In this document: positions 41,463 through 53,968 of the stretch, piece by piece
How positions within the stretch are numbered: the first letter of the stretch is position 1
How the letters are laid out: every line of letters starts with the position of its first letter
Virus record (IMG/VR): IMGVR_UViG_3300045988_156245
Strand: one strand, 5' to 3'
DNA from: a virus
Length of the DNA: 64,000 nucleotides
Position numbers and translations under genes: made by a program
The notes under the pieces: model-generated
The model's input: only the letters and a program-made list of their open reading frames with translations
Databases searched by the model: none
What the model was told of the DNA's origin: nothing

Positions 41463-41502
41463 CGGGCCGTGGACATTGTTCCTTGTTCCTGTCCACGGGC
41501 CG
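41463..41502 (+). other. conserved GTGGACA hairpin, copy 1
   Basis: stem ccgtggaca/tgtccacgg plus basal cgg/ccg, 14-nt loop ttgttccttgttcc. Confidence 0.7.
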
Positions 41503-41520: not shown

Positions 41521-41753
41521 TTGCACAAAAATTTTTGAATTGAAACGTTTTTATTTGTGCAATATGCACAATTCCCACAAAGAACATACGTTTGTCAATA
41601 GGCAAATTGCACAAAAATGTGGGGATAAAAACGTTTCAATCCTGTGCAATTTGTACAAATTGCACAAAACAGTTTTAGTGCAATTTTACCAACTTCCGGC
41701 ACTTTGCACAAAAAGTATCAAAAGCTTTAGAGTTATTTTTGTGCAATTTGCAC
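41521..41753. repeat. cluster of at least 8 TTGCACAAA / TTTGTGCAA boxes
   Basis: forward copies at 41521, 41607, 41659, 41704; reverse at 41554, 41644, 41738; variant ttgtacaaa at 41650. Confidence 0.75.
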
Positions 41754-41827
41754 TCTTGACAAAGCCAAAGGTTTGGTTCTAAGGCTAAGATTAAGCACTC
41801 AAGAGCAGAGCAATACACTACATCACA

Positions 41828-42491: not shown

Positions 42492-42494
42492 TAA

Positions 42495-42573
42495 AAAGTA
42501 AATGGCTACCTTTGTAGGGTACTACAAAGGTAGCACAATATTAAGAGAACAGACCAGAACGTCCGTTCGGGTC
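42495..42573 (-). ncRNA. candidate antisense small RNA a
   Basis: starts about 7 nt after the minus-strand promoter 42580-42609; GC-rich cggacccgaacggacguuc head; ends at the 13-bp hairpin 42505-42534 followed by uuuuu on the minus strand. Confidence 0.35.
42505..42534. terminator. 13-bp hairpin shared by the plus gene end and antisense RNA a
   Basis: gctacctttgtag/ctacaaaggtagc; the U-run is only on the minus strand. Confidence 0.55.
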
Positions 42574-42579
42574 CGAAAT

Positions 42580-42609
42580 ATTATACCACAAAGTATGTGG
42601 TGTTGTCAA
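42580..42609 (-). promoter_or_regulatory. antisense consensus promoter a
   Basis: reverse complement TTGACA-acaccacatactttgtgg-TATAAT (N18, TGn). Confidence 0.6.
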
Positions 42610-42707
42610 GACTTTTTTTAAAATTTTTTTAAAAAATTTTAAAAATCCTGAAATAAAACTGGTTAAAAAACATCAAGGATTTTAATAAAAGAGGTTAAAA
42701 AACATCA

Positions 42708-42735
42708 TTGAATTGTTCTGTTATTTTGATATAAT
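42708..42735 (+). promoter_or_regulatory. promoter with conserved ATAAGATAAAG leader
   Basis: TTGAAT-N16-TGaTATAAT; leader acataagataaaggaaagg then hairpin 42760-42776. Confidence 0.55.
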
Positions 42736-42790
42736 GTATACATAAGATAAAGGAAAGGACAACATCAAAGATGTTGAAAGGTAAAGTAAA

Positions 42791-43006
42791 ATGAGATTTT
42801 TTGTACAAGACACAGAGGAATTTGAAAATAATGGAATTGAATACAAGAGTTTAGATAAAGCAATTGAAGCTTGTTTAGAAGCAAAAAATAAAGCTTATCT
42901 TATTCATATAGGTTATTGGAATTTAGATTATTATAAAAAAGGTGACACATTCGAAAGTCTAAAGGCTAGATGTGAAAACATCATAAAAGAAAATAATCTC
43001 AAGTAA
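42791..43006 (+). CDS. hypothetical protein (71 aa)
   Basis: ORF behind the conserved leader. Confidence 0.6.
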   Translation: MRFFVQDTEEFENNGIEYKSLDKAIEACLEAKNKAYLIHIGYWNLDYYKKGDTFESLKARCENIIKENNLK

Positions 43007-43057
43007 TTGAGATTATTTTCAAAAAAGACTTGATAAACTGTATAATTACTAAAATAA

Positions 43058-43147
43058 AGAAAAAAGGGGGGCAACCCCTTTTTATTATTTTAAAAGAAGG
43101 CGAACACCGTTCGAACAGGTGTTCACCCCGAATTCGCAAGGGCACCC
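43058..43147 (-). ncRNA. candidate antisense small RNA b
   Basis: minus-strand promoter 43154-43182; RNA contains the gaacacc/ggtgttc hairpin and ends at the aaaaagggg...ccccttttt hairpin with a U-run. Confidence 0.35.
43061..43086. terminator. bidirectional G/C hairpin with flanking A/T runs
   Basis: aaaaagggggg caa cccctttttatt. Confidence 0.6.
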
Positions 43148-43153
43148 CATTCA

Positions 43154-43182
43154 AGTATATCATATTTCAAAAAGTTTGTCAA
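43154..43182 (-). promoter_or_regulatory. antisense consensus promoter b
   Basis: reverse complement TTGACA-aactttttgaaatatga-TATACT (N17, TGn). Confidence 0.6.
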
Positions 43183-43352
43183 GACTTTTTTTGAAAAAAT
43201 CCTGAGAAAAATTGCACAAAAAAGATACTGAATTTTTGTTACTATTTGCTATTGATTTTAAAAGTCAATAGTAAATATTAACAAAAATTTTGCTGTAAAC
43301 TTTATCTGTTTTTGTGCAAATTGCTAAAGTTAAAAAACTTTTGTAAAAACTA

Positions 43353-43381
43353 TAGACAAAACCAAAAAAAAGCTGTATAAT
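43353..43381 (+). promoter_or_regulatory. promoter with conserved leader
   Basis: TAGACA-N17-TATAAT; leader acataagataaagaaaggg plus hairpin 43405-43422. Confidence 0.5.
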
Positions 43382-43437
43382 GTTTACATAAGATAAAGAA
43401 AGGGAGCGACCAAGGGGTCGCTGATAGGTAAAACAAA

Positions 43438-43713
43438 ATGATGAATCTTACAGAAAGAATTAAAAAAGTTGAAGAAATTAGCAGACAGTTACAAATAGCA
43501 TACCCACAATATAGTAATAAAGATATTGAATCATTTAATTTGAATTGTATAAAATCAATTGGAGATTTTGCTTTTATTGCTATTTTTGCTAATGTAGACT
43601 GTTATACAATAACTTTATATAACTCAATAGGGTTTAAAAAAATAGAAATAGAAAAAAATGATATTGATTTTCAATACCTTTATAAAATAATAGAAATATT
43701 TATGGAAAGATAA
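43438..43713 (+). CDS. hypothetical protein (91 aa)
   Basis: ORF behind the conserved leader. Confidence 0.6.
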   Translation: MMNLTERIKKVEEISRQLQIAYPQYSNKDIESFNLNCIKSIGDFAFIAIFANVDCYTITLYNSIGFKKIEIEKNDIDFQYLYKIIEIFMER

Positions 43714-43723
43714 AAAGAGGTAA

Positions 43724-43736
43724 GGGGGGGGGGGGG
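43724..43736 (+). repeat. G13 homopolymer tract
   Basis: 13 consecutive G immediately 5' of the ATG at 43737. Confidence 0.9.
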
Positions 43737-43774
43737 ATGAAAAGCCCCCACACAATAAAAAAGAGGTGTTTAAA

Positions 43775-43912
43775 ATGAAACAAAAATATTTTGAAATAGG
43801 TAACCGACTAACAACTGGCTTAGGACTTGAAAATAAAACAGTGATTAAATACTGGAAAGCATACGAAAAAAATAATTTTTTTGTCTGCTGGCTAATATCT
43901 AAAGTGGCATAA
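43775..43912 (+). CDS. small ORF (45 aa) coupled to a 13-codon leader ORF
   Basis: leader ORF 43737-43778 (MKSPHTIKKRCLK) ends in ATGA overlapping the ATG at 43775; aagaggtg RBS; terminator follows. Confidence 0.4.
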   Translation: MKQKYFEIGNRLTTGLGLENKTVIKYWKAYEKNNFFVCWLISKVA

Positions 43913-43964
43913 ATGCCACTTTTTATTTTTGTGCGTTCGGTCTACCCGAACGTACGTTCGGAGC
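43900..43964 (-). ncRNA. candidate antisense small RNA c
   Basis: minus-strand promoter 43971-43999; RNA begins ggcuccgaacguacguucggguagaccgaacgc with mutually exclusive CCGAAC/GUUCGG pairings. Confidence 0.3.
43903..43930 (+). terminator. rho-independent terminator
   Basis: agtggcat/atgccact stem followed by tttttattttt. Confidence 0.6.
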
Positions 43965-43970
43965 CGAAAA

Positions 43971-43999
43971 ATTATATCATATATGTGTCAAGTTGTCAA
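43971..43999 (-). promoter_or_regulatory. antisense consensus promoter c
   Basis: reverse complement TTGACA-acttgacacatatatga-TATAAT (N17, TGn). Confidence 0.6.
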
Positions 44000-44056
44000 G
44001 AGAAAAAAATGAAATTTTTTCAATTAAATAATTTTATCCCAAAATTAAAAAGGTGC

Positions 44057-44085
44057 TTGACTATTCGGTTATTATACTGTATAAT
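44057..44085 (+). promoter_or_regulatory. promoter
   Basis: TTGACT-N17-TATAAT. Confidence 0.6.
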
Positions 44086-44121
44086 TGTATACAGATAGAG
44101 AGATATAGGAGGCTTAATAAT

Positions 44122-44430
44122 ATGATTAATATTAGAACAATTAAAAAGTTACAAAATAATGACGGATTAACATTAAAAGGTGGTAAGTGTATCACTTATA
44201 AATCAGGTTATCAGGTAGCAACAGAGGGAATCGAAACAACAAACCCTCAAGAGGCTATACAAGCCGTTAGGGCATACGGCGGGAATTGCGGTGTATGGTT
44301 TGAAAATGGTATCTATTATATAGATAAAAGCCACAGAGTAACCACAAAAAAAGACGCTTTACAGTTAGGGAGAGAAAAAAATCAAATAAGCATTTTACAA
44401 TGGCGAACAATGAAATTAATATATTGTTAA
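44122..44430 (+). CDS. hypothetical protein (102 aa)
   Basis: ATG after the aggagg RBS. Confidence 0.6.
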   Translation: MINIRTIKKLQNNDGLTLKGGKCITYKSGYQVATEGIETTNPQEAIQAVRAYGGNCGVWFENGIYYIDKSHRVTTKKDALQLGREKNQISILQWRTMKLIYC

Positions 44431-44448
44431 AAAGGGGAAACCCTTTTT
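44429..44448 (+). terminator. short terminator hairpin
   Basis: aaaaagggg aaa cccttttt. Confidence 0.45.
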
Positions 44449-44460
44449 AACTTTTTGTTG

Positions 44461-44740
44461 TGACTAACAGAAGTTAGTCTTGACTAACTGTTATTAGTAT
44501 TATCTAACTATAGTTAGTTTAGTCTAATTTTAATTAGTGATGTCTAACTATGGTTAGTCTAGACTAACTGAAGTTAGAAGTGTCAAACTTTAGTTACTAT
44601 AGGCTAACTTTGATTGGTTGTTTGAAACTCAGGTTAGTATAGGCTAACCGCAGTTAAGTGTTTGAAACTCTTGTTAGGTGTAACTAACCAGAGTTAGTAT
44701 AGGCTAACTCAAATTAGTTATTTGAAACTCTTGTTTTATT
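44461..44740. repeat. array 1: 14 phased 20-bp units with CTAAC-N4-GTTAG palindromes
   Basis: exact 20-bp register from 44461; arms conserved, centres and spacers variable; 40-bp super-period in the right half. Confidence 0.9.
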
Positions 44741-44743
44741 AAG

Positions 44744-44783
44744 CGGACCGTGGACATTGGACCTTATTTTTGTCCACGGTCCG
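44744..44783 (+). other. conserved GTGGACA hairpin, copy 2
   Basis: 13-bp stem cggaccgtggaca/tgtccacggtccg, 14-nt loop ttggaccttatttt. Confidence 0.75.
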
Positions 44784-44793
44784 TCTGGTCCAG

Positions 44794-44814
44794 CCGAACA
44801 TACGTTCGGGTTTT
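44794..44814 (+). terminator. CCGAAC-atac-GTTCGG terminator
   Basis: 6-bp GC-rich stem plus tttt; identical copy at 49289-49309. Confidence 0.6.
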
Positions 44815-44998
44815 AAACTGATTAAAAAACATCAAGTTGATTGATGTTTTTTATCCCATAAAATAAATCAAGTTAGTTGATGTTTTTTAATCAGTAAAAT
44901 ATATCAAATTCCTTGATATATTTTAATTTGAAATATTTTTATTTATTTTTGTGCAAATTGTACAAAAATTCAATGTAAATTTTGTGCAATATTCCCCC

Positions 44999-45027
44999 TT
45001 GCAATTATACACCGTAGGGTGTATAAT
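44999..45027 (+). promoter_or_regulatory. promoter with conserved leader
   Basis: TTGCAA-N17-TATAAT; leader acataagataaagaaagg plus hairpin 45052-45068. Confidence 0.55.
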
Positions 45028-45083
45028 GTATACATAAGATAAAGAAAGGAACACCCCACAAGGGGGTGGAAAGGTAAAACATT

Positions 45084-45368
45084 ATGAACAAAAATTATTC
45101 AATTGAAAAAGACAATCCATATTACAGGGAGATAGTCTGCCTTGAGATAATAGGCGAGCATATCGACGAATCCGACAAGTGTTTCTTATGTTATCAGAGA
45201 AAAGTATGGGAAGAAGTTGAGGATGGAGAAATAGAACATATGGGATTTGAACCTATTTGTTCATTAGATGAACCAATACCTAACAAAAATATTCCAACCC
45301 TCACTGTTAGTAGTAGTGAAATTGAGGATATTGAAGAAAATGATAAATATGTATGGGTAGCAAAATAA
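45084..45368 (+). CDS. hypothetical acidic protein (94 aa)
   Basis: ORF behind the conserved leader. Confidence 0.6.
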   Translation: MNKNYSIEKDNPYYREIVCLEIIGEHIDESDKCFLCYQRKVWEEVEDGEIEHMGFEPICSLDEPIPNKNIPTLTVSSSEIEDIEENDKYVWVAK

Positions 45369-45419
45369 TAAAATAAAGATAAAATCCTAGCCCTATATGG
45401 GCTAGGTAGGAGGTTTAAT

Positions 45420-45674
45420 ATGAGAACAATTACAGTTGAAAAAATAGAAGTAATAAGTTGTGTAATCGCAGTCAGTGCAAATGATAATATATATGAAGCT
45501 TGGCTTGAAGTGTTTGGTATGATTAAAGATTTTGAAACAATAGTCAATAATACAGATATATGCGAAAAACTTATAGAGATTATTAATAAGGGACTTGCAA
45601 CTGATGACTTTTTCAAAGAAGAATTATTTGAAACTTTGAGAAAAATGGGCGAAAATATTGAAAATTGGTTATAA
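45420..45674 (+). CDS. hypothetical protein (84 aa)
   Basis: aggagg RBS; preceded by the intercistronic hairpin 45386-45406. Confidence 0.6.
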   Translation: MRTITVEKIEVISCVIAVSANDNIYEAWLEVFGMIKDFETIVNNTDICEKLIEIINKGLATDDFFKEELFETLRKMGENIENWL

Positions 45675-45724
45675 AATAAAATCCTGCCCCTTGAAAAAGG
45701 GGTGGGTAGAAAAGAGGTTTTAAT

Positions 45725-46183
45725 ATGAAAGTTATAGTTTTTGATATGGACGGTACAATAGCAGACTTATATGGCTATCCAAATTGGCTAAAAGCATTAA
45801 GAAATGAGGATGAAACACCATATTCAGGTTGTAAGCCTTTGGTTGATATGCGTGAGTTATATAAAGTTTTAATGGCTTTAAAAAAAGTTGGCTATAGGAT
45901 AGTTGTAACAAGTTGGCTATCAAAAGATAGTTCAAAAGAATATAAAAGTAAAGTCAGAAAAGCAAAAAAAGATTGGCTAATAACAAGAGGTTTTCCTTAT
46001 GATGAAGTTCATTTAGTACAATATGGTACAACAAAAGCCGATTGCACTAGAAAATTAGGTGGGTTTCAGATTTTAGTTGATGATGATGAAAAGGTCTTAA
46101 AAGGTTGGCATTTAGGTGCGACTATCAACGCAAAAAGTGATATTATAAAAGCACTTTATAGGCTTTTAGAATCTGAATATTAG
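45725..46183 (+). CDS. HAD-superfamily hydrolase, 5'(3')-deoxyribonucleotidase-like
   Basis: 152 aa; motif I VFDMDGTIAD (DxDxT), VVTSW motif II-like, ILVDDD motif IV-like. Confidence 0.6.
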   Translation: MKVIVFDMDGTIADLYGYPNWLKALRNEDETPYSGCKPLVDMRELYKVLMALKKVGYRIVVTSWLSKDSSKEYKSKVRKAKKDWLITRGFPYDEVHLVQYGTTKADCTRKLGGFQILVDDDEKVLKGWHLGATINAKSDIIKALYRLLESEY

Positions 46184-46240
46184 AATGATAAATACCCCTA
46201 TACGGCATTGAAAAATAAGTAAATGAAATGCTGTATAGGG

Positions 46241-46270
46241 TTGACAAAATAAAAAAAATTATTATATAAT
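46241..46270 (+). promoter_or_regulatory. promoter with conserved leader
   Basis: TTGACA-N18-TATAAT, then gtataagataaagaaagagg. Confidence 0.55.
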
Positions 46271-46302
46271 ATATGTATAAGATAAAGAAAGAGGTATTAG
46301 AT

Positions 46303-46566
46303 ATGAATAAAATGAATTATTTACAATATAGCACAGCAATAGACGTAGTAGCAAATATGACAAATGTTGACAATGAAGTTGCAATTAAGACAGTTGGTGC
46401 ATTATGCCAAATTTTTGATTTGCAACCAGAAGAAAATCTTGATGATATTACTAAAGCATTAGTTGACTCATTAGAAAAAGCTGGTATTTTTACAGAAGAA
46501 GAAATTGAAATGGTTAAGAATGGCGAAACTAATGAAGAAATCATAGATAAAATAATGAATATGTAA
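46303..46566 (+). CDS. hypothetical acidic protein (87 aa)
   Basis: ATG 46303 after the agagg RBS. Confidence 0.55.
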   Translation: MNKMNYLQYSTAIDVVANMTNVDNEVAIKTVGALCQIFDLQPEENLDDITKALVDSLEKAGIFTEEEIEMVKNGETNEEIIDKIMNM

Positions 46567-46631
46567 TTTTATTATATATATCAAGAGTATGAAAAACTAA
46601 AGACAATAAAATATATGAAAGGAGTAAACCA

Positions 46632-46799
46632 ATGTCACAAAATCTTAATGAAATTGCGGCGATGGCACTCATTGGCGAATTTGTTTCCGTCAAAGAATTA
46701 CTCACCGCCGCAATGAAAGGTTTTGCAGAAGATGAAGATATTAAATCACAAGAAAATGCTGATTTATGTTTTAAGGCTTTGCAAACATTCCTAAAGTAA
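46632..46799 (+). CDS. small ORF (55 aa)
   Basis: aaaggag RBS 8 nt upstream; below the ORF-track length cutoff. Confidence 0.45.
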   Translation: MSQNLNEIAAMALIGEFVSVKELLTAAMKGFAEDEDIKSQENADLCFKALQTFLK

Positions 46800-46919
46800 T
46801 TAGGGAGCTACCGAAAATGGTCGTTGGTGGCTCGGTTCACTCCATAGCACCCATAAAGCAAGGTTTTTTAAATGAAAATTCAGAAATAAAGAAAAAATAA
46901 AGTTTCCTAAAATAAACAG

Positions 46920-46948
46920 TTGACACAGCCCCTTTTATATGATATAAT
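46920..46948 (+). promoter_or_regulatory. promoter
   Basis: TTGACA-N17-TGaTATAAT. Confidence 0.6.
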
Positions 46949-46979
46949 ATATGTATCAACAGAAAGAGAGGATATATAA

Positions 46980-47126
46980 ATGAAAAAAAGATTTACTTTA
47001 GTTATAAGAAATAAAAAATATAATATGATAGACCTTGATACACACGATTTATATATAGGACTTTGGCAGATATTCAAAGCCTTATGGAAAAATAGAAAAA
47101 ATTACACACTATATATAAATAAATAA
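46980..47126 (+). CDS. small basic ORF (48 aa)
   Basis: agagagg RBS; terminator 47141-47192 follows. Confidence 0.45.
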   Translation: MKKRFTLVIRNKKYNMIDLDTHDLYIGLWQIFKALWKNRKNYTLYINK

Positions 47127-47140
47127 AATAGACAAATCCC

Positions 47141-47192
47141 GATAGCAGAAACACCCTTTCCTTTTTTACCTTAAGTTTCTGCTATCTTTTTT
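47141..47192 (+). terminator. rho-independent terminator
   Basis: 12-bp stem gatagcagaaac/gtttctgctatc then tttttt. Confidence 0.65.
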
Positions 47193-47204
47193 ATAAAAAA
47201 ACTA

Positions 47205-47233
47205 TTGACAATCATTTAGTTTTGATGTATAAT
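47205..47233 (+). promoter_or_regulatory. promoter with conserved leader
   Basis: TTGACA-N17-TATAAT then atatacataagataaaggaaagg. Confidence 0.6.
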
Positions 47234-47267
47234 ATATACATAAGATAAAGGAAAGGAAGTAAATGAT

Positions 47268-47705
47268 ATGAGAAAAGTACTTGACAGACAAACTTATGTA
47301 AGAGCAATAGGAGAGAAAGAGTGGCACAGAACTTCAATTTTTAAACATTTATCCTATCAAGAGGAAAAAGAAATTACAATTAAAATAATACAGTATGATA
47401 ATTTTAAAGACACATTAAGATACGTAGAAACAGATGAAATTTATAATGCAGAAATTGATTATACTTTATTTAGAAATAAGCCTTATATTAATATTTATCA
47501 CGCACCTAAATATTCATTAATGGAACGCTCTTACTTCAAAATTACAGAAAAGAATTTTGTTCCTATAGAATTTAAAATTGAATATGAAGAGTGTGAAGAT
47601 ATAAGCCTAGATGCTCTTAAGAGATTACTTACTGCCAAAGAATATTGTGATTTTATAAATGATAATTTAGATACAAAAGTAAAAAATATGTTGTTGAGGG
47701 GTTGA
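47268..47705 (+). CDS. hypothetical protein (145 aa)
   Basis: ORF behind the conserved leader. Confidence 0.6.
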   Translation: MRKVLDRQTYVRAIGEKEWHRTSIFKHLSYQEEKEITIKIIQYDNFKDTLRYVETDEIYNAEIDYTLFRNKPYINIYHAPKYSLMERSYFKITEKNFVPIEFKIEYEECEDISLDALKRLLTAKEYCDFINDNLDTKVKNMLLRG

Positions 47706-47731
47706 CAAAAACCCCTCCCCTATGTTATAAT
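47702..47731 (+). promoter_or_regulatory. promoter of candidate small RNA
   Basis: TTGACA-N18-TGtTATAAT overlapping the stop codon of the 145-aa gene. Confidence 0.55.
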
Positions 47732-47737
47732 TAATAA

Positions 47738-47858
47738 TGGGAATGGAATTTGAATGTAGCAAAGAACAATCTGTTTTTAATTGGTCGGCTCGTGGACATT
47801 GCACCTTATTTCTGTCCACGAGCCGAATTGTGCGTCAGAGTGACGCTTGAAACGTTTT
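47738..47858 (+). ncRNA. candidate small RNA ending in GTGGACA hairpin copy 3
   Basis: no RBS; 14-bp stem tcggctcgtggaca/tgtccacgagccga (47785-47826, loop ttgcaccttatttc), second hairpin gcgtca-gag-tgacgc (47832-47846), U-run 47855-47858. Confidence 0.4.
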
Positions 47859-47953
47859 ATCTTAAAATAAATCAATTTGCTTGACCTTTTTTAATCCCGA
47901 AAAAGTGGTTAAAAATAATCAAGGATTTTGGTAAAAAAGGATAAAAAATATCA

Positions 47954-47981
47954 TTGTATTATTTTGTTATTTTGATATAAT
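47954..47981 (+). promoter_or_regulatory. promoter with conserved leader
   Basis: TTGTAT-N16-TGaTATAAT then agacacataagataaaggaaagagg. Confidence 0.5.
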
Positions 47982-48014
47982 AGACACATAAGATAAAGGA
48001 AAGAGGTAATTAAT

Positions 48015-48266
48015 ATGAGAGAAAAAAGATTAGCAGTAATGCACAATGTAGTAGTAGGATATGCAGATGATTATGCTTTAAATAATTGGTTGTCTGTAAT
48101 ACCAGATGGTGAAACTCCAGAATGTTTTGCAGAAATCGCCGCAGATGATGAACTATATCACGAGGCTTGGCAAGTGTTTAGTGAAATAATCAAGAGAGAT
48201 AGAACTGTAGCATTACAGTATATCGCAGAAATTGATAAAATGATTGAAGAAGATTATCAAATCTAA
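48015..48266 (+). CDS. hypothetical acidic protein (83 aa)
   Basis: ORF behind the conserved leader. Confidence 0.6.
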   Translation: MREKRLAVMHNVVVGYADDYALNNWLSVIPDGETPECFAEIAADDELYHEAWQVFSEIIKRDRTVALQYIAEIDKMIEEDYQI

Positions 48267-48325
48267 ATAAAAATAAAGGGTGCTATAAGCACCCTTTGAA
48301 ATCAAAAGAAAGAGAGGTAAATAAT

Positions 48326-48571
48326 ATGGAAGTAAATTGTAAGAATATACTAGAAAATAATGAAGATTTAACAATCCACGGAGAGGGACTAAATGACGGA
48401 GATACTTTTGCTTTTAAAGATGAGCCAACAACAATTTATATGATTGCAGATGGATTGTCTCAAATTTTTAATATTGAGACGGGCGAAACTTTTACATTAC
48501 AAAGAAAAGATTATGAAAAACCAATTAATATAGTATATGGTAAATTTCAAATTATATCAATACAAAGATAA
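48326..48571 (+). CDS. hypothetical protein (81 aa)
   Basis: ATG 48326 after the agagagg RBS. Confidence 0.55.
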   Translation: MEVNCKNILENNEDLTIHGEGLNDGDTFAFKDEPTTIYMIADGLSQIFNIETGETFTLQRKDYEKPINIVYGKFQIISIQR

Positions 48572-48583
48572 GGGGGCGATAAT

Positions 48584-48886
48584 ATGCTAAAAAAAGGTAC
48601 AAGAGTAAAAATAGCAGATAAACATTTAAAAAGTAATGGCAGATTAGGTACATTTGTAGGATTAAATTCACAAGATTATTATAAAATTTATCTTGATGAA
48701 CCCATTGGTAAAAATGTATATTTAGTTACATTAAGAGATATGGAATCATTTGAGATTGCGTGGGAAGAAATGGAGCCTGATGTAGTAAAAGCAGAATGTT
48801 TTGAATGGGTTAAAAATAGAGTATCAAGTTTAACCTCTCAACTAGACGCAGTAACTAAAGTTATAAAAAGGTGGAGTGATGAATAA
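48584..48886 (+). CDS. hypothetical protein (100 aa)
   Basis: gggggcg RBS-like sequence; KOW/SH3-like KKGTRVKI start. Confidence 0.55.
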   Translation: MLKKGTRVKIADKHLKSNGRLGTFVGLNSQDYYKIYLDEPIGKNVYLVTLRDMESFEIAWEEMEPDVVKAECFEWVKNRVSSLTSQLDAVTKVIKRWSDE

Positions 48887-48914
48887 TTAAATAATCAAAA
48901 GAAAGGATTTAAAA

Positions 48915-49122
48915 ATGAAAACAGTAGATTTATACAAAGAGATTCAGAATATAGCAGATAGACTTGAAGATATTAGGATGTTACTTTATAATAGTGCAGA
49001 ACATAGGGGGTAACTTTGAAGAAGATTTTCAAAATTTTGATGATGATATGTTTCGTTTGCAAAGTGAGTTAAGAAATTTAGTTTCTGATGAATTAGAACT
49101 TTATGATAATGAAGAAGATTAA
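48915..49122 (+). pseudogene. small acidic ORF interrupted at a G5 run
   Basis: the ATG 48915 frame stops at 49011-49013 right after ggggg (49006-49010); removing one G gives a continuous 68-codon ORF ending at 49122. Confidence 0.45.
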
Positions 49123-49136
49123 TAAAAAATCAATAG

Positions 49137-49167
49137 GCAAGTTGCACAAAATGTGACTTGCTTTTTT
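49137..49167 (+). terminator. terminator
   Basis: gcaagt/acttgc stem (loop carries a TTGCACAAA box) then tttttt. Confidence 0.5.
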
Positions 49168-49182
49168 GTGCAAAATTACTAC

Positions 49183-49211
49183 TTGACAAAGTGCGGCGGA
49201 TGTGCTATAAT
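49183..49211 (+). promoter_or_regulatory. promoter of candidate small RNA
   Basis: TTGACA-N17-TATAAT; the -10 context atgtgcTATAAT is identical to the promoter at 53770. Confidence 0.55.
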
Positions 49212-49217
49212 AAAATG

Positions 49218-49309
49218 GGACTCTATAGACTCATATATTTCAGATGTTTGTCGGCTCGTCGATGGTTGAGACGAGCCGAGTTGTCAAGCCGAACATACGT
49301 TCGGGTTTT
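49218..49309 (+). ncRNA. candidate small RNA with hairpin variant copy 4 and CCGAAC terminator
   Basis: 10-bp stem tcggctcgtc/gacgagccga (49251-49279), then ccgaac-atac-gttcgg plus tttt (49289-49309); no RBS. Confidence 0.4.
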
Positions 49310-49385
49310 AAATTGATTAAAATACATCAAGAACCTTGACTTATTTTATCCCATAAAAAACATCAAGTTGATTGATGTATTTTAA

Positions 49386-49640
49386 TCTAACAAAAGTTAG
49401 ACACAACTAATTCTAGTTAGGCTTGACTAACCCCAGTTAGCCTAAACTAACTAAAGTTAGTTACTATTAATTTAAGTTAGCTGTAACTAACTTTTGTTAG
49501 CCACCTCTCATTAAAGTTTTGTTAAACTAATTTTAGTTAGATTGCCCCTAATTCAAGTTAGTTATAACTAACGCAAGTTAGACTTCACAAATAAAAGTTA
49601 GTTAAAACTAACAGCAGTTAGATTAAACTATCGTCATTTT
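49386..49640. repeat. array 2: 13 phased 20-bp units with CTAAC-N4-GTTAG palindromes
   Basis: left arms at 49387, 49407, 49427, 49447, 49467, 49487, 49507, 49527, 49548, 49568, 49588, 49608, 49628; GTTAG arm nearly invariant; alternate units read aACTAAY. Confidence 0.9.
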
Positions 49641-49747
49641 GCACAAAATTTTCAATTGAAAAATTTTGTATGATTGCACAAAAAATAATATCCCCAACCC
49701 CGCATTTTTGTGCAATCTGCTAAAGTTAATTAAAATGATAACAAAGT

Positions 49748-49775
49748 ATTGTTTTTTGTAACGCATTTGATATAA
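49748..49775 (+). promoter_or_regulatory. promoter (weak -35, extended -10)
   Basis: TTGTTT-N16-TGaTATAAT; 75-nt leader with hairpin gtgctt/aagcac 49781-49800. Confidence 0.45.
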
Positions 49776-49849
49776 TAGACTTGTGCTTGATAAATAAAGC
49801 ACTTGAACATTTACAATTTAATATTTTAAGAGAAAGGTGGTAATATTTT

Positions 49850-50332
49850 ATGATTATCGAATTTGCAACTATTATCTTTTTTATTTGTAGTTTAATCAAT
49901 GTAATGTTATCTACATTAAAAACCATTTTAACAGTTAAAGCGTCAAAAGGTGTGGCAACCATTATTAATGCAATAACTTATGGCTTTTATGCTATTGTAG
50001 TAAAACAGTTAGCAAGTTTAGACTTAATAACTACTGTTACAGTTACTATTGTAACTAATATAATAGGGGTGTATGTTTCAATGTGGTTATTAGAAAAAAC
50101 AAAAAAAGATTGTTTATGGAAAATATCCGTTACTACTAAAGATAATACTTTAGTAGAAAAATTAGAAAAGTTTAGTATTTCTTATGTAATGAACCCAGTT
50201 CAGTATAAAAAACAAACTTATTATAATATTGATGTTTTTAGTGAAAATCAAAAGGATAGTTCTATTATTGAAAACATACTAAAAGAATATAAAGTAAAAT
50301 ACAATATTACAGAAATTAATAAAAAATTTTAA
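49850..50332 (+). CDS. UPF0316 (YebE-like, DUF5698/DUF2179) membrane protein
   Basis: 160 aa; 3 TM N-terminal half with LSTLKTILTVKASKGVATIINAITYGFYAIVV resembling B. subtilis YebE, small soluble C-terminal domain. Confidence 0.55.
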   Translation: MIIEFATIIFFICSLINVMLSTLKTILTVKASKGVATIINAITYGFYAIVVKQLASLDLITTVTVTIVTNIIGVYVSMWLLEKTKKDCLWKISVTTKDNTLVEKLEKFSISYVMNPVQYKKQTYYNIDVFSENQKDSSIIENILKEYKVKYNITEINKKF

Positions 50333-50349
50333 AAAAATTAAAAAAGTGC

Positions 50350-50378
50350 TTGCAATTCCTCGCAAGATATGATAATAT
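50350..50378 (+). promoter_or_regulatory. promoter (TTGCAATTCC class)
   Basis: TTGCAA-N17-TGaTAATAT; paralogous to 51466-51493, both followed by gtcaagRg...ttgcaacYcca. Confidence 0.5.
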
Positions 50379-50459
50379 TAATATTGTCAAGAGGCACAAG
50401 GGATTGCAACTCCACTTTTGACAATGTACATTTATAAATTAATAAAGAGAGGTAACAAA

Positions 50460-51437
50460 ATGAACAAGAAATTTTATTTAACAGTAGACACCGAAACGGC
50501 AACAATTCCATTTGCAAATCAGATTTGCAAAAATGCTAATCAAAAACAGAAAATTGCGATTGCTAAACCTTTAGTATATGATATTGGTTGGAGCATTACC
50601 GACAGACAAGGTAATATCGTAAAAACAGAAAACTTTTTAGTTCAGGAAACGTTCTTTGTTCCTAACGTTTTCAATACTGCTTATTACAGAGATAAAAGAC
50701 CTATTTATATGGAATTGTTAGAAAAAGGCGAGATTAAAGTTGATTGCTGGAATAACATTATGAAGTTATTCATCGCAGACCTTGAAAAAGTTGATATTTC
50801 AACTGCCTACAATGCGTGTTTTGATTTTAAAAAGGCAATACCATTTACTGAACGTTATATCAAGGCTTTATATTCAAGTGACTATCAAAAATGGGAAGAT
50901 AGACAAAAAAAGAGTTGTGAGGACATTCTTAATAATCGCAGTAATGCTAAAAATGAAGAATATCTAAATCCATATTTTGAATTAAGGGGCGTACAGTACC
51001 CTATAGCCGACTTATGGTGTATTGCTTGTGAACGTTTAATAAACATCAATAAATACAGAAACTTTTGTCTTGATAGAGGTTATGTAACAAACAGTGTAGT
51101 ATTTTTCAAATCATCAGCCGAAACATCATTTCAATATTTAATGAACAACTATGATTTTATCGAGGACCACACCGCATTATCGGACGCACTAATTGAAAGC
51201 CAGATTTTAACAAAAGCCTTGAAAAAGGGCAAAATTGAGCCTACATTATATGCGTTTCCGTTTAGGGATTTAGGTTCAACTATAGATTATGCAATAGACA
51301 CAAACCATAAATATATTGAGCCATTATACGAATTGTTATTAAAATATATTGAAAATAATGATGGTTTTGACAAAGGTGGGGCATATTGGAAGAAGATTAT
51401 GAAAGAACTTGAAAAACTTGAAAATGCAAACTTTTAA
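50460..51437 (+). CDS. DEDDh (DnaQ-like) 3'-5' exonuclease
   Basis: 325 aa from the ATG at 50460; ExoI LTVDTETA, ExoII YNACFDF, ExoIII HTALSDA. Confidence 0.7.
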   Translation: MNKKFYLTVDTETATIPFANQICKNANQKQKIAIAKPLVYDIGWSITDRQGNIVKTENFLVQETFFVPNVFNTAYYRDKRPIYMELLEKGEIKVDCWNNIMKLFIADLEKVDISTAYNACFDFKKAIPFTERYIKALYSSDYQKWEDRQKKSCEDILNNRSNAKNEEYLNPYFELRGVQYPIADLWCIACERLININKYRNFCLDRGYVTNSVVFFKSSAETSFQYLMNNYDFIEDHTALSDALIESQILTKALKKGKIEPTLYAFPFRDLGSTIDYAIDTNHKYIEPLYELLLKYIENNDGFDKGGAYWKKIMKELEKLENANF

Positions 51438-51465
51438 AAAAAATAAAAAAATTTAATAAAAAGGG

Positions 51466-51493
51466 TTGCAATTCCATTTCAAAGTGCTATAAT
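51466..51493 (+). promoter_or_regulatory. promoter (TTGCAATTCC class)
   Basis: TTGCAA-N16-TGcTATAAT. Confidence 0.5.
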
Positions 51494-51559
51494 AGATAGT
51501 GTCAAGGGAATGGAGTTGCAACCCACCAAATAAAAAATTAAGAAAAGAGGTAATGTATT

Positions 51560-51931
51560 ATGACAAACAAAAAAATGACAAAGAGAGATTATTTTAACGG
51601 ACTTTTAGGAGTGATTGAAAATCACAAAGATAGCATTGAGAATTATGAAGATTTTAAGGCTTTCATTGAAAGAGAGATTGAATTACTTAATAAGAAACGT
51701 AGCAATTCAAAACCAACAAAGACACAGATTGAAAATGAAAAAATCAAAGAAAAAATTCTTGAGGTTTTAACAGATGTAAATGAAGTTATGACAATTTCTG
51801 AATTAATGACTGCTGACGGTTTAGAAAATTATTCAAATCAGAAACTTTCAGTTTTATGTCATCAGTTAGTAAATGAGCATAAGGTAGTCAATACCAAAGT
51901 AAAAAAAGTTTCATATTTCAAAATTGCCTAA
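51560..51931 (+). CDS. hypothetical winged-helix-like protein, paralog A
   Basis: 123 aa; shares EIELLNKKRS..KPTKTQIENEKI...MTI.E(L/M)M....L..YSNQKLS.LC with 53238-53633. Confidence 0.6.
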   Translation: MTNKKMTKRDYFNGLLGVIENHKDSIENYEDFKAFIEREIELLNKKRSNSKPTKTQIENEKIKEKILEVLTDVNEVMTISELMTADGLENYSNQKLSVLCHQLVNEHKVVNTKVKKVSYFKIA

Positions 51932-51993
51932 AGGCTATGGGGATAGCCACAAAGGTTATCCCCTTAAAATCTTAAAAAAGGAGTTGATAAAAA

Positions 51994-52362
51994 ATGACTA
52001 AGGCAGAAGAAAAAGCCAAAGAAATTAAAGGTTTAATGGAACGTCATTCTTTAACATTGGAAGAAGCCACCCAACTATGGGAAGAAGATAATTCAGACTA
52101 CTGTAATGAAGAAATGGCAGAAATGGAGAATAAGGCTAAAGCCTTAAAACGCAGGTATGAGAAAGATTTAACAAAAAAACGCAAGCCTACCGAAAGGGAA
52201 CGCAAAGTTGATACAGAAAAACTTGAAATTTTAAATTTAATAGTTCCAACATTACAAACAATTAGTGACAATGTGGAACGCAAGAATGAAGTTGAGTTAC
52301 ATTTTACAAAAGGTGGTAATGATTACACGATTAAATTAATCAAACATCGTAAAAAGAAGTAA
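51994..52362 (+). CDS. hypothetical charged protein (122 aa)
   Basis: aaggag RBS; strong terminator follows. Confidence 0.6.
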   Translation: MTKAEEKAKEIKGLMERHSLTLEEATQLWEEDNSDYCNEEMAEMENKAKALKRRYEKDLTKKRKPTERERKVDTEKLEILNLIVPTLQTISDNVERKNEVELHFTKGGNDYTIKLIKHRKKK

Positions 52363-52372
52363 TGACAACGAG

Positions 52373-52413
52373 TGCAAGTAGTATTCAATACTACTTGCAT
52401 TTTTTATTTTTTT
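52373..52413 (+). terminator. strong rho-independent terminator
   Basis: tgcaagtagta/tactacttgca stem then tttttattttttt. Confidence 0.75.
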
Positions 52414-52580
52414 CAATGTTACATATTGTATGAGTGCGGGGGAGCCGGTATTAGTGACTTTTACCTAAATACAATATGTGATATGTCACGTACTATGTTA
52501 CATATTATAATATGTGATATATCACACGCAAGGTCACATATTACAATATGTGATATGTTACATACAATATGTGACCTTAA
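52405..52580. repeat. cluster of ATATGTGAT / ATCACAT direct and inverted repeats with 7-bp phasing
   Basis: acaatatgtgatatgt(c/t)ac at 52471, 52543, partial 52564; tgtgatatatcaca palindrome 52513-52526; tcacatatt-ac-aatatgtga palindrome 52534-52553. Confidence 0.8.
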
Positions 52581-52590
52581 CAGGACTCAT

Positions 52591-52617
52591 CGCAGCGTTT
52601 CCGGTTGAAACGCTGCG
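52591..52617. other. GC-rich 10-bp hairpin
   Basis: cgcagcgttt/aaacgctgcg, loop ccggttg; lies at the 5' end of the transcript predicted from the antisense promoter 52635-52663. Confidence 0.6.
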
Positions 52618-52634
52618 TGTTTGGGTAATATTTT

Positions 52635-52663
52635 ATTATACCACTTTTTCACTCCGATGTCAA
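52635..52663 (-). promoter_or_regulatory. antisense consensus promoter d
   Basis: reverse complement TTGACA-tcggagtgaaaaagtgg-TATAAT (N17, TGn). Confidence 0.6.
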
Positions 52664-52712
52664 TAGTAATTTTGCACAAAAATTTTTTCCCAAAATTGTG
52701 AAATTTTACTAA

Positions 52713-52942: not shown

Positions 52943-52976
52943 GATTATATCAAAAGAAAGAGAGGAGGATAAAAAA

Positions 52977-53769: not shown

Positions 53770-53798
53770 TTGACAAATAGTAACAAATGTGCTATAAT
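53770..53798 (+). promoter_or_regulatory. promoter of candidate GC-rich RNA
   Basis: TTGACA-N17-TATAAT (atgtgcTATAAT). Confidence 0.6.
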
Positions 53799-53803
53799 TG
53801 TCG

Positions 53804-53968
53804 GAGCCTGAGCGAGCGACAGGCTCCGAGTCCCAGTCCCATACTCTATATGGCGAATTTTTCTGAGTGTTTGAACTTGCATATTTTTTTCTACCGCGTC
53901 CCGAAATCCTTTACCGGCATCTCCGCATATGGCCGCCAATTCTGAGTGTTTTGAGTCCCCTATTTTTT
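53804..53968 (+). ncRNA. candidate structured non-coding RNA (GC-rich island)
   Basis: about 165 nt, visibly GC-rich against the AT-rich background; 5' hairpin cggagcctg/caggctccg (53802-53828); internal duplication atatggc(c)g..aatt(t)tctgagtgttt(t)ga at 53848 and 53927; ends in tattttttaa; no plausible ORF on the plus strand. Confidence 0.4.

What the first reader, a model, noticed from the sequence alone, without database searches (positions are those of the whole stretch)
47702..47858. Conserved GTGGACA hairpin with fixed 14-nt loop and covarying base, embedded in ORF-less promoter-to-terminator units
Three copies share the apical stem GTGGACA/TGTCCAC and a 14-nt loop TTGnnCCTT(a/g)TTyy. 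They are 41463-41502 (loop ttgttccttgttcc), 44744-44783 (ttggaccttatttt) and 47785-47826 (ttgcaccttatttc). The basal stems differ but stay paired: cggGCC.../...GGCccg with one mismatch, cggACC/GGTccg and tcggCTC/GAGccga. A fourth hairpin at 49251-49279 keeps only the tcggctcg base. Copy 3 and the 49.25 kb variant each sit 50-60 nt downstream of a consensus promoter (47702-47731, 49183-49211). Each is followed by a second small GC hairpin and a U-run, giving transcripts of about 90-120 nt with no ribosome-binding site. A conserved loop together with a covarying stem is the classical signature of a functional RNA element, such as a protein or RNA recognition hairpin. Possible roles include an antiterminator or processing site, or a small-RNA scaffold.
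Basis: seen in the sequence. Interest (0 to 1): 0.75.

Follow-up and report, generated by a model that had tools for sequence, protein, structure and literature searches.

The report
Conserved GC hairpin in phage early-gene hubs
The hairpins are real and belong to a previously undescribed family of GC-rich stem-loops that a whole group of large human-gut phages keeps between their early genes, often squeezed between converging promoters; the stem is under selection but the supposedly conserved loop is not, and the function is still inferred.

Summary
The three GTGGACA hairpins (41463, 44744, 47786) and the 49252 variant exist as described and are far beyond chance. Across a clade of 100-190 kb gut Firmicutes siphophages, including published phAss-1, the early region carries 3-10 GC-rich hairpins. 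They have a C(G/C)G...C(G/C)G base, a modal length of exactly 27 nt, abundant compensatory changes and the flanks TT-N-GG / A-R-TTTT. A covariance model gives 106 of 107 hits on the early-gene strand, all on the early side. The 'degenerate' 49252 copy is the canonical form. Two more window copies exist (52591, 53802). The 40-nt GTGGACA form is species-specific. The loop is not conserved: a diverged strain keeps 26/26 stem bases of copy 2 but changes 5/14 loop bases, and it lacks the promoter upstream of copy 3. Hairpins sit in ORF-less hubs: upstream terminator, hairpin, operator-like boxes, next promoter. Consensus sigma-70 promoters abut the hairpin at fixed spacings on either side, 70-80 times more often than at random positions. 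Best reading (about 0.4): a structural RNA hairpin capping the ends of early transcripts, as 5' stabiliser and backup terminator/insulator. sRNA, antitermination and DNA-level roles remain open. It is not in Rfam.

The parts
41463..41502 (+). Hairpin c1, 40-nt species-specific form: CGGGCCGTGGACA / ttgttccttgttcc / TGTCCACGGGCCG, one G.G mismatch. No nearby promoter.
   Evidence: The mismatch is replaced by perfect pairing or by G.U in other strains. Weak model hit, 8.2 bits.
44744..44783 (+). Hairpin c2, 40-nt form: CGGACCGTGGACA / ttggaccttatttt / TGTCCACGGTCCG. It directly follows iteron array A.
   Evidence: The L149 orthologue keeps 26/26 stem bases and changes 5/14 loop bases. Model hit 14.1 bits on + against 11.1 on -.
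47786..47825 (+). Hairpin c3, 40-nt form: CGGCTCGTGGACA / ttgcaccttatttc / TGTCCACGAGCCG. A flanking T-A pair extends it to 47785-47826.
   Evidence: It is identical in L149, where ~130 nt downstream is also conserved. Model hit 20.7 bits on + against 13.1 on -.
49252..49278 (+). Hairpin v4, canonical 27-nt family form: CGGCTCGTC / gatggttga / GACGAGCCG, followed by AGTTGT.
   Evidence: Best model hit in the window, 39.7 bits. Identical in L149.
52591..52617 (+). Hairpin v6, newly found 27-nt member: CGCAGCGTTT / ccggttg / AAACGCTGCG. It sits in a fully canonical hub.
   Evidence: Model hit 22.7 bits, E 6e-4. Context read.
53802..53828 (+). Hairpin v5, newly found 27-nt member: CGGAGCCTG / agcgagcga / CAGGCTCCG. 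A consensus promoter ends 3 nt upstream.
   Evidence: 31.8 bits.
47702..47731 (+). Consensus sigma-70 promoter (TTGACA-18-TATAAT, TG-extended) 54 nt upstream of c3. Its -35 lies in the loop of the upstream gene's terminator hairpin.
   Evidence: Present in the IMG/VR strains. Absent in L149.
49183..49211 (+). Consensus sigma-70 promoter (TTGACA-17-TATAAT, TG-extended) 40 nt upstream of v4.
   Evidence: Conserved in L149.
53770..53798 (+). Consensus promoter P(+) abutting v5, with the -10 ending 3 nt before the hairpin. This is the family-typical spacing.
52635..52663 (-). Consensus extended -10 promoter P(-) pointing at v6 (TTGACA-17-TATAAT, 17 nt from the hairpin), followed by a TTTTGCACAAAAA box at 52672.
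44794..44815 (+). Terminator-like hairpin CCGAACATACGTTCGG + GTTTT, 10 nt after c2.
   Evidence: Same sequence as the 49289 site that the terminator scan flagged.
49289..49309 (+). Terminator-like hairpin CCGAACATACGTTCGG + GTTTT, 10 nt after v4. It closes the ~95-nt ORF-less unit.
   Evidence: In L149 the stem is kept and only the loop changes.
47832..47846 (+). Small hairpin GCGTCAGAGTGACGC after c3. The U-run is not adjacent, so it is a weak terminator at best.
   Evidence: In L149 only loop bases change.
44464..44723 (.). Iteron array A: 13 units of the palindrome CTAAC-N4-GTTAG at a 20-nt period, running into c2.
   Evidence: The same iteron flanks family hairpins in L024, L026, L033 and L034.
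49387..49621 (.). Iteron array B: about 12 units of the same 20-nt periodic palindrome, downstream of the v4 unit.
44823..44935 (.). Three tandem 36-nt units (palindrome ATCAA-N5-TTGAT flanked by A and T runs). One more lies at 47863-47903 and two at 49318-49394.
41521..41760 (.). Cluster of TTGCACAAA / TTTGTGCAA operator-like boxes downstream of c1, including the clade-wide composite TTTGTCAATAGGCAAATTGCACAAAA at ~41590. Similar clusters lie at 44948-44990, 49142-49175, 49639-49715 and 53671-53760.
43895..43999 (-). Minus-strand ORF-less unit: a 12/12 promoter (43999-43971), then 4 nt, then the CGGCTC[CCGAACGTACGTTCGG]..ACCG hairpin, then a bidirectional terminator (43922-43901). Sister units start at 42609 and 43182.

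Best explanation
The hairpin is one copy of a clade-wide, structure-selected element in the ORF-less hubs between the early operons of these phages. The early operons are read by host RNA polymerase. A hub runs: conventional terminator of the upstream operon, optional rightward consensus promoter, hairpin, optional leftward consensus promoter, operator-like boxes (iteron arrays in some lineages), then the promoter of the next operon. I propose that the hairpin works as RNA, as a very stable GC-clamped stem-loop at the ends of early transcripts. For RNAs started at an abutting promoter, the predicted start lies at the hairpin edge or a few bases inside it. The stem-loop is then flush with the 5' end, the arrangement known in Firmicutes to block 5'-end-dependent decay. 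For polymerases that read through the upstream terminator, the hairpin plus its short T-tract is a second stop and a 3' cap, insulating the next promoter region. In the window's species the apical part was replaced by a 24-nt module and the T-tract was lost, and a separate terminator follows 10 nt later. Shown here: the structure is selected, the orientation, location and spacings are fixed, and the loop is free to vary. Inferred: that RNA rather than DNA is the acting form, and the stabiliser/terminator effects.
For: Structure under selection. Pairs 1-8 are 97% Watson-Crick in 128 distinct model hits. Pairs 4/24, 5/23 and 8/20 covary. Orthologous hairpins differ by three double-sided changes between identical flanks (L052 against L056). 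The c1 mismatch is repaired in other strains. Stems are invariant where flanks are 83-87% identical. An unbiased census makes (CGG, 27 nt) the most frequent hairpin class, against 0-1 CGG-based hairpins in shuffles. Link to early transcription. 106 of 107 model hits are on the early-gene strand, all on the early side of the sigma-like gene, with none in the structural region. All window hits lie at 41-54 kb on the + strand. End-of-transcript position. A conventional terminator ends within 60 nt upstream in 52/77 members. The -10 of a rightward promoter ends 2-4 nt before the hairpin in 20/77, and that of a leftward promoter ends 7-8 nt after it in 21 (22 within 6-12 nt), against 0.3-0.4% at random positions. 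With a start ~7 nt after the -10 (general knowledge), the stem-loop is at the very 5' end. A terminator-grade T-tail is present in 40/77, and T occupies +4 in 65/77. Loop-independent function fits the loop drift. The hairpin is kept even where the dedicated promoter is lost.
Against: No transcript data exist, so every RNA end is predicted. 22 of 77 members have neither an abutting promoter nor a T-tail, and this group includes window c1 and c2. The T-tail is no more frequent where the upstream terminator is missing (odds ratio 1.0), so termination is not the universal role. Rightward promoters at 3-nt spacing would start inside the stem and drop the invariant CGG from the RNA. In c3 and v4 the hairpin is ~47 and ~33 nt from the predicted start, so it is not 5'-terminal. 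A mere stabiliser or terminator does not explain the sharp 27-nt length mode, the semi-conserved CGRYCG loop motif, or why three window copies share one apical module. G.U against A.C counts do not identify the acting strand.
Confidence: 0.4

Rival explanations
1. Stand-alone small RNAs. Each hub encodes a short, highly structured, untranslated RNA (promoter, hairpin, terminator) that acts in trans. It could titrate a host or phage protein, or act as a cis-antisense RNA against the 3' end of the converging early operon.
For: In v4 the promoter, hairpin and terminator stem are all conserved in the diverged strain while the leader drifts. The predicted 95-nt and 125-nt RNAs fold better than shuffles (z -2.5 and -3.6). 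Leftward-promoter members would give 73-115-nt RNAs in 10 of 23 cases. The window has three further minus-strand promoter-hairpin-terminator units. The small ORFs through the hairpins are not conserved.
Against: c3's promoter is absent in L149 although the hairpin and downstream block are invariant. 43 of 77 members have no abutting promoter. Rightward-promoter members have no later terminator within 290 nt. Loops are not conserved. No complementary targets were found in the window beyond shuffles. The hairpin's orientation follows the genome, not the side on which the promoter lies.
Confidence: 0.2
2. Antitermination or another protein- or polymerase-recognition hairpin, in the manner of lambda nut boxB or HK022 put. 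The hairpin in the nascent early RNA would load a factor, or act directly, so that polymerase reads through the terminators that follow.
For: In c2, c3 and v4 the hairpin lies just before terminator-like hairpins and the next operon. Three copies in one genome share an identical apical stem and near-identical loop on different bases. Other lineages have different apices. This resembles nutL/nutR within a phage and their divergence between phages (comparison from general knowledge). Two tandem promoters per operon, one with the hairpin and one without, would give two classes of transcript.
Against: Within single related genomes the copies have unrelated stems and loops (L085, L056). That argues against one sequence-specific binder. 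The c2 loop changes 5/14 bases between strains. In most relatives no terminator lies between the hairpin and the next gene. No N-, Q- or LoaP-like protein was detected among 20 of the larger early ORFs, which are nearly all orphans. Many hairpins are themselves terminator-like.
Confidence: 0.12
3. DNA-level element. The palindrome would extrude as a hairpin or cruciform, or act as a phased spacer between two converging promoters. It could form a promoter-interference switch, a priming or recombination site, or part of an iteron-bound nucleoprotein complex.
For: The palindromes are near-perfect, and G.U is as rare as A.C in the core stem. Consensus promoters converge on the element at fixed spacings, so the two polymerases would exclude each other. 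Length modes of 27, 37-38 and 48 nt, with nothing in between, suggest steps of about one DNA helical turn. Operator-like boxes sit at fixed offsets, and iteron arrays are adjacent in five lineages.
Against: The element is confined to the early region and co-oriented with transcription, rather than spread along the genome as replication signals would be. GC skew has no inflection at the hubs. The sequence varies freely as long as it pairs, which argues against a sequence-specific double-strand binder. Neighbouring ordinary terminators are equally poor in G.U, so that criterion is not informative. The length classes come from few independent lineages.
Confidence: 0.15
4. RNA mimic of a host element used as counter-defence, such as a solitary CRISPR-repeat mimic (Racr-like) or an antitoxin-RNA mimic.
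For: ORF-less, promoter-driven, hairpin-containing units in a phage early region. 36-nt tandem repeats lie nearby, and that size recalls type III antitoxin repeats (comparison from memory only).
Against: The exact apical module occurs in 185,579 bacterial and archaeal genomes only on one contig, and that contig is this phage. No arrays were found. Rfam, which includes CRISPR direct-repeat and antitoxin RNA families, gives nothing even at permissive thresholds. Stems differ between copies and lineages, which a mimic of one host repeat would not tolerate.
Confidence: 0.03

Closest known systems
Intrinsic (Rho-independent) terminators, including tandem terminators in phage early regions
   Same: GC-rich stem of 8-13 bp with a GC clamp at the base. 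A T-tract follows within 2 nt in about half the members. The element is co-oriented with transcription and sits at operon ends right after another terminator.
   Different: The T-tract is short (T4 at +3..+6) and absent in half the members, including all six window copies. Its presence does not depend on whether a conventional terminator precedes. Length, base triplet and loop motif are conserved across a clade, which terminators do not need. Promoters abut the hairpin on both sides.
5'-terminal stem-loop mRNA stabilisers of Firmicutes (ermC/aprE-type leaders, phage SP82 stabiliser; from general knowledge)
   Same: For 34 of 77 members the predicted start lies at or just inside the hairpin, so the RNA would begin with a flush, very stable stem-loop.
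   Different: The known stabilisers are single, unrelated leaders, not a multi-copy conserved family. Here 43 of 77 members have no abutting promoter, and c3 and v4 are 33-47 nt from the predicted start.
Lambda nut boxB / HK022 put antitermination RNA sites
   Same: Hairpins in early transcripts ahead of terminators, in several copies per genome. The apex is identical within the window's species but different in other lineages.
   Different: No boxA-like partner, N-like protein or put-like double stem-loop was found. Copies within related genomes have unrelated apices. The loop drifts between strains. Many members look like terminators themselves.
REP/BIME-type repetitive extragenic palindromes of bacteria
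   Same: Short GC-rich imperfect palindromes with a conserved base and a variable, compensating stem. Many copies, intergenic at the 3' ends of operons, in a fixed orientation relative to genes.
   Different: REP elements are chromosomal, number in the hundreds, and are spread by RAYT transposases that recognise a GTAG motif. Here there are 3-10 copies in a phage early region, and no HUH/RAYT-like hit appeared among the 20 early ORFs screened. No evidence of mobility was found.
SPBRE, the 15-bp operator of the SPbeta master repressor MrpR (PMC10516654)
   Same: A repeated element in many intergenic early promoter regions of a large Firmicute siphophage with a related (YonF-type) terminase.
   Different: SPBRE is a conserved double-strand sequence motif bound by a protein. 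The hairpin conserves pairing rather than sequence. SPBRE is the better analogue of the TTGCACAAA / TTGTCAATAGGCAAA boxes that accompany the hairpin.
Converging (face-to-face) promoter switches such as coliphage 186 pR/pL (from general knowledge)
   Same: In 11 of 77 members two consensus promoters face each other across the hairpin, with predicted starts ~23 nt apart. Their polymerases must exclude each other.
   Different: The known switches are single loci controlling lysis and lysogeny, and have no conserved palindrome between the promoters. Here the arrangement is repeated before several early operons and is present in only a minority of copies.

Membership tests
Intrinsic terminator | Stable GC-rich stem-loop | tested here: met
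   Stems of 8-13 bp, mostly G-C. The hairpin dominates the predicted folds.
Intrinsic terminator | U-rich tract immediately 3' of the stem | tested here: inconclusive
   40 of 77 family members pass a rule of at least 5 T in 8 nt. None of the six window copies does: their tails are TCTTTACC, TCTGGTCC, AATTGTGC, AGTTGTCA, TGTTTGGG and AGTCCCAG.
Intrinsic terminator | Ends transcripts in vivo or in vitro | not testable with these tools
   No transcript data are available. As an indirect test, the T-tail is not enriched where the upstream terminator is missing.
Lambda-type nut site | Same hairpin apex (boxB) in all copies of one genome, recognised by one N protein | tested here: inconclusive
   Met in the window's species, where three copies share one apex. 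Not met in relatives such as L085 and L056, where every copy differs. The apex also drifts between strains.
Lambda-type nut site | Conserved linear partner element (boxA) and a cognate antiterminator protein | tested here: not met
   The only conserved flanks are TT-N-GG and A-R-TTTT. No early ORF matches an antiterminator family in Pfam. Orphan proteins cannot be excluded.
N4-type hairpin promoter | Giant virion RNA polymerase, and a hairpin upstream of the start in place of -35/-10 elements | tested here: not met
   The 2,895-aa protein is a tape measure protein. The hairpins are flanked by ordinary sigma-70 consensus promoters and lie downstream of the -10.
CRISPR-repeat mimic (Racr / solitary repeat unit) | Sequence matches the repeat of a CRISPR array in host genomes | tested here: not met
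   The exact apical module occurs in the genome collection only on a contig of this phage. No Rfam CRISPR-DR hit was found. The 27-nt forms were not scanned against genomes.
RNase III processing site (T7 / SP82 type) | About two helical turns (roughly 20 bp) of duplex RNA | tested here: not met
   Stems are 8-13 bp. The length requirement is taken from general knowledge.
REP/BIME element | Multi-copy intergenic GC-rich palindrome with a conserved base and compensating stem | tested here: met
REP/BIME element | Associated RAYT (HUH) transposase and a conserved GTAG-type recognition motif | tested here: not met
   The base is C(G/C)G, not GTAG. No HUH/RAYT-like Pfam hit appeared among the 20 window early ORFs screened. 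The rest of each genome was not examined.
Any Rfam family | Score at or near a family's gathering threshold | tested here: not met
   0 matches at gathering thresholds over 64 kb. No match overlaps a hairpin at E up to 5.

The most novel reading that the evidence does not exclude
The hairpin is the core of a repeated regulatory device that has not been described. In it, a structure-selected 27-nt palindrome sits between two converging consensus host promoters next to operator-like boxes, before several early operons. It would act as a toggle, through promoter interference, a hairpin-dependent block, or extrusion of the palindrome. The toggle would time early gene expression or capture host RNA polymerase across a large clade of abundant human-gut phages.
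Probability: 0.15. Interest if true: 0.7.

Novelty: new variant of a known kind. Interest (0 to 1): 0.5.

Why it matters
These phages are large, uncultured, common in the human gut and probably infect Oscillospiraceae, and almost nothing is known about how they run their early programme. Most of their early genes are orphans that are not even shared between relatives. The hairpin and its hub layout, by contrast, persist across phages whose terminases are only ~45% identical. That makes the hub one of the few conserved handles on early gene control in this clade. The covariance model is also a practical marker: it locates and orients the early region in metagenomic contigs. If the converging-promoter arrangement proves to be a switch, it would be a new, modular way for a phage to gate host-polymerase transcription. 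If the hairpins are only transcript end-caps, the finding is a tidy but ordinary example of phage RNA housekeeping.

Tried and rejected
(1) Anti-Shine-Dalgarno or antisense pairing by the CCUU loop: the best duplexes in window transcripts are no better than in shuffled sequence. (2) Leaderless small ORFs through the hairpins (ATG at 47737 and 49215, both in frame with the hairpin): the ATG is lost in L149 and the reading is not conserved. (3) Replication origin at the hubs: GC skew only follows gene strand, with no inflection. (4) N4-like hairpin promoters: the giant ORF is a tape measure protein. (5) CRISPR-repeat or host-element mimic: there is no bacterial match apart from this phage. (6) G.U against A.C asymmetry to call the acting strand: 5 against 6 cells in the core stem. 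Neighbouring ordinary terminators are equally G.U-poor, so the test cannot discriminate. (7) Complementarity between the upstream terminator and the hairpin's own T-tail: none. (8) A protein that co-occurs with the iteron arrays: none within the +/-10 kb held. (9) Cultured relatives: Enterococcus phage H1 shares the synteny but has no such hairpins. (10) Literature: the SPbeta SPBRE is a protein operator, not a hairpin. The phAss-1 paper does not mention hairpins, promoters or terminators. A keyword search found nothing relevant. (11) My first covariation count was partly circular, because members had been selected for pairing. I replaced it with an unbiased hairpin census, orthologue comparisons and a model-based search.
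Full report
OBSERVATION. The window is part of a large tailed phage. Terminase, portal, tape measure and a sigma-like gene lie on the minus strand up to 39.6 kb. A block of small plus-strand early genes with many perfect sigma-70 promoters runs from 40 to 54 kb. The terminase is YonF-type. The nearest cultured relatives are Enterococcus phages H1/EF1, Geobacillus E3 and the gut phage phAss-1.

The core GTGGACATTGNNCCTTNTTNNTGTCCAC occurs three times, against none in 100 shuffles. The promoters at 47702-47731 and 49183-49211 match the consensus 12/12. Rfam and tRNA scans find nothing, even at permissive thresholds.

THE WIDER FAMILY. Exact-pattern hits in IMG/VR are only near-identical strains. 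Anchoring on the sigma-like gene gave 80 loci from 100-190 kb phages whose protein is 53-66% identical. None carries the GTGGACA apex or its loop. They do carry many GC-rich hairpins with a CGG...CCG base.

Of 78 distinct hairpins, 36 are exactly 27 nt long. Minor length modes lie at 37-38, 40 (this species only) and 48 nt. In the 27-nt class, pairs 1-8 are almost always Watson-Crick. Pairs 4/24, 5/23 and 8/20 covary. The loop has a loose C-G-R-Y-C-G motif in one orientation. The flanks read TT-N-GG and A-R-TTTT.

My members had been picked for pairing, so the formal count (93% paired, 71 double-sided changes against 23 in shuffles) is partly circular. I therefore added an unbiased census of all perfect hairpins. 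In it, (CGG, 27 nt) is the commonest class, and shuffles give 0-1 CGG-based hairpins. A (CCG, 27 nt) class proved to be the same element.

A covariance model built on 36 members finds 107 hits at E<=0.01 in 1.26 Mb. Of these, 106 are on the early-gene strand. All lie on the early side of the sigma-like gene, and none is in Enterococcus phage H1.

In the window the model recovers all five known copies on the plus strand and adds a sixth at 52591-52617. It finds nothing outside 41-54 kb. The 49252 'variant' is therefore the canonical form, and the 40-nt GTGGACA hairpins are a lineage-specific version. Copy c3 looks like a v4-type hairpin whose apical 11 nt were replaced by the 24-nt module GGACA-loop-TGTCC. 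phAss-1 has the same hubs, and its paper does not mention them.

STEM AGAINST LOOP. A contig binned with an Oscillospiraceae genome (L149) is the same phage at 83-91% identity. Its c2 keeps 26/26 stem bases but changes 5/14 loop bases, and CCTT becomes CCGC. Its c3 hairpin and ~130 nt downstream are nearly unchanged. The promoter upstream of c3, however, is gone, and an ordinary terminator abuts the hairpin instead. Its v4 keeps the promoter, the hairpin and the terminator stem. It loses the ATG of the small ORF that I had considered.

A stem-only metagenome scan shows further variation. The G.G mismatch of c1 is replaced by perfect pairing or by G.U in other strains. Single loop positions also vary. 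So the structure is selected and the loop sequence is not.

CONTEXT. The hairpins lie in ORF-less hubs. A conventional terminator ends within 60 nt upstream in 52 of 77 members. A TTGCACAAA-type box lies within 130 nt downstream in 47 of 77, against 8% for random windows. TTGTCAA(T/G)A sits at only two offsets from the hairpin.

Consensus promoters abut the hairpin. The -10 of a rightward promoter ends 2-4 nt before it in 20 of 77 members. The -10 of a leftward promoter ends 7-8 nt after it in 21 (22 within 6-12 nt). Eleven members have both. Such promoters occur at these offsets from random positions only 0.3-0.4% of the time.

The hairpin keeps its genomic orientation whichever side the promoter is on. 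Leftward units would give 73-115-nt RNAs in 10 of 23 cases. Rightward ones run on into the next operon. The window also has three minus-strand promoter-hairpin-terminator units. Iteron arrays (CTAAC-N4-GTTAG at a 20-nt period) adjoin hairpins in the window and in four other loci (L024, L026, L033, L034).

MECHANISM. The simplest account that fits the fixed co-orientation with early transcription, the restriction to the early region, the loop-independence and the position at predicted RNA ends is structural. The hairpin would be an RNA stem-loop that caps early transcripts. It would be flush with the 5' end of hub-initiated RNAs, and it would act as a backup terminator or 3' cap for read-through.

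I give this about 0.4. Several results count against it. 22 of 77 members have neither a promoter nor a T-tail. The T-tail is unrelated to the presence of an upstream terminator. Neither the 27-nt length nor the shared apical module is explained.

The rivals are stand-alone small RNAs (0.2), a DNA-level element or promoter-interference device (0.15), a nut/put-like recognition hairpin (0.12) and a host-RNA mimic (0.03).

The following tests gave no support: loop-target pairing, GC skew, G.U/A.C asymmetry, protein co-occurrence with the iteron arrays, and an N4-type polymerase.

COMPARISON AND NOVELTY. The element resembles intrinsic terminators, Firmicute 5' stabilisers, REP palindromes and nut sites. 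It fails at least one defining feature of each (see the membership tests). SPBRE of SPbeta is a protein operator, and it is the analogue of the accompanying boxes rather than of the hairpin.

The family is absent from Rfam, and I found no description of it in the papers I searched. I class it as a new variant of a known kind, namely intergenic structured hairpins at transcript boundaries. A minority possibility is that the converging-promoter hub is a new regulatory device.

VERDICT. Interest is moderate at 0.5.

Noticed in passing
44464-44723 and 49387-49621: Two arrays of 13 and about 12 units of the palindrome CTAAC-N4-GTTAG at a strict 20-nt period, found nowhere else in the window. The same iteron occurs next to family hairpins in L024, L026, L033 and L034. 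They are probably cooperative binding sites for a dimeric DNA-binding protein (regulator, initiator or partition-like). No co-occurring protein was found.
   Followed up: partly
44823-44935, 47863-47903, 49318-49394: 36-nt tandem units TAAAAnACATCAAGTTGATTGATGTTTTTTA. Each is an AT-rich hairpin or palindrome (ATCAA-N5-TTGAT) between A and T runs. They are specific to this phage species. They could be weak bidirectional terminators or protein sites. The unit size recalls type III antitoxin repeats, but nothing supports that.
   Followed up: partly
40-54.5 kb, clusters at 41521-41760, 44948-44990, 49142-49175, 49639-49715, 52672, 53671-53760: 28 TTGCACAAA / TTTGTGCAA boxes (at most 1 mismatch), often as inverted pairs. 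The composite TTTGTCAATAGGCAAATTGCACAAAA is conserved across the clade at fixed offsets from the hairpin. They are likely operators of an early regulator, analogous to SPBRE/MrpR of SPbeta.
   Followed up: partly
42609-42495, 43182-43055 and 43999-43895, minus strand: Three ORF-less units on the strand opposite the early genes. Each has an 11-12/12 TG-extended promoter, a 5'-proximal hairpin a few nt after the -10, and a terminator shared with the converging operon. Their products would be about 70-90-nt RNAs.
   Followed up: partly
43946-43961, 44794-44809, 49289-49304; variants near 42557 and 43101: A second recurrent hairpin, CCGAAC-N4-GTTCGG. It is used as a terminator stem after c2 and v4, and it is nested inside a CGG...CCG hairpin in a minus-strand unit.
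   Followed up: partly
42706-42755, 43352-43401, 44998-45047, 47204-47253, 47952-48001; and 54300-63500: Early gene promoters share a conserved leader, ACATAAGATAAAGGAA, right after the -10. A different promoter class (TTATATAATAT...TATAAGATAAAGAAAGGAG, with no -35) dominates 54-64 kb. It may depend on the phage sigma-like protein (38524-39636).
   Followed up: no
52480-52580: A run of palindromic ATATGTGATAT-type repeats just upstream of hairpin v6. The mechanical ORF 52372-52608 that covers them is probably not a gene.
   Followed up: no
53829-53960: A GC-richer ORF-less stretch after hairpin v5 with a repeated TTCTGAGTGTTTnGA motif. It lies where the plus-strand early block meets a minus-strand gene block. 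Its predicted fold is no better than shuffles.
   Followed up: partly
40261-53633: 15 of 26 early ORFs have no detectable homologue in the early regions of 71 related phages, and nearly all lack Pfam or PHROG matches. The early gene content turns over far faster than the non-coding hub architecture.
   Followed up: partly
L149 (CAVHMC010000029.1): A 12.9-kb contig binned with an Oscillospiraceae metagenome-assembled genome is this phage at 83-91% identity. This is a host hint or a binning artefact. The phAss-1 paper also points to Clostridia/Oscillospiraceae.
   Followed up: partly
L150-L204 (about 20 metagenome loci): An unrelated, very abundant gut element, AATAAACCGTGGACAGCGGCATATGCCGCTGTCCACGGTTTTTCAT, shares the CCGTGGACA stem by chance. 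It looks like a bidirectional terminator in contigs of 46-58% GC.
   Followed up: no
10312-10338: A 27-nt hairpin, CGGAAGTAAC-cctacca-GTTACTTCCG, in the structural-gene region. The family model does not match it, so it is probably an ordinary terminator.
   Followed up: partly
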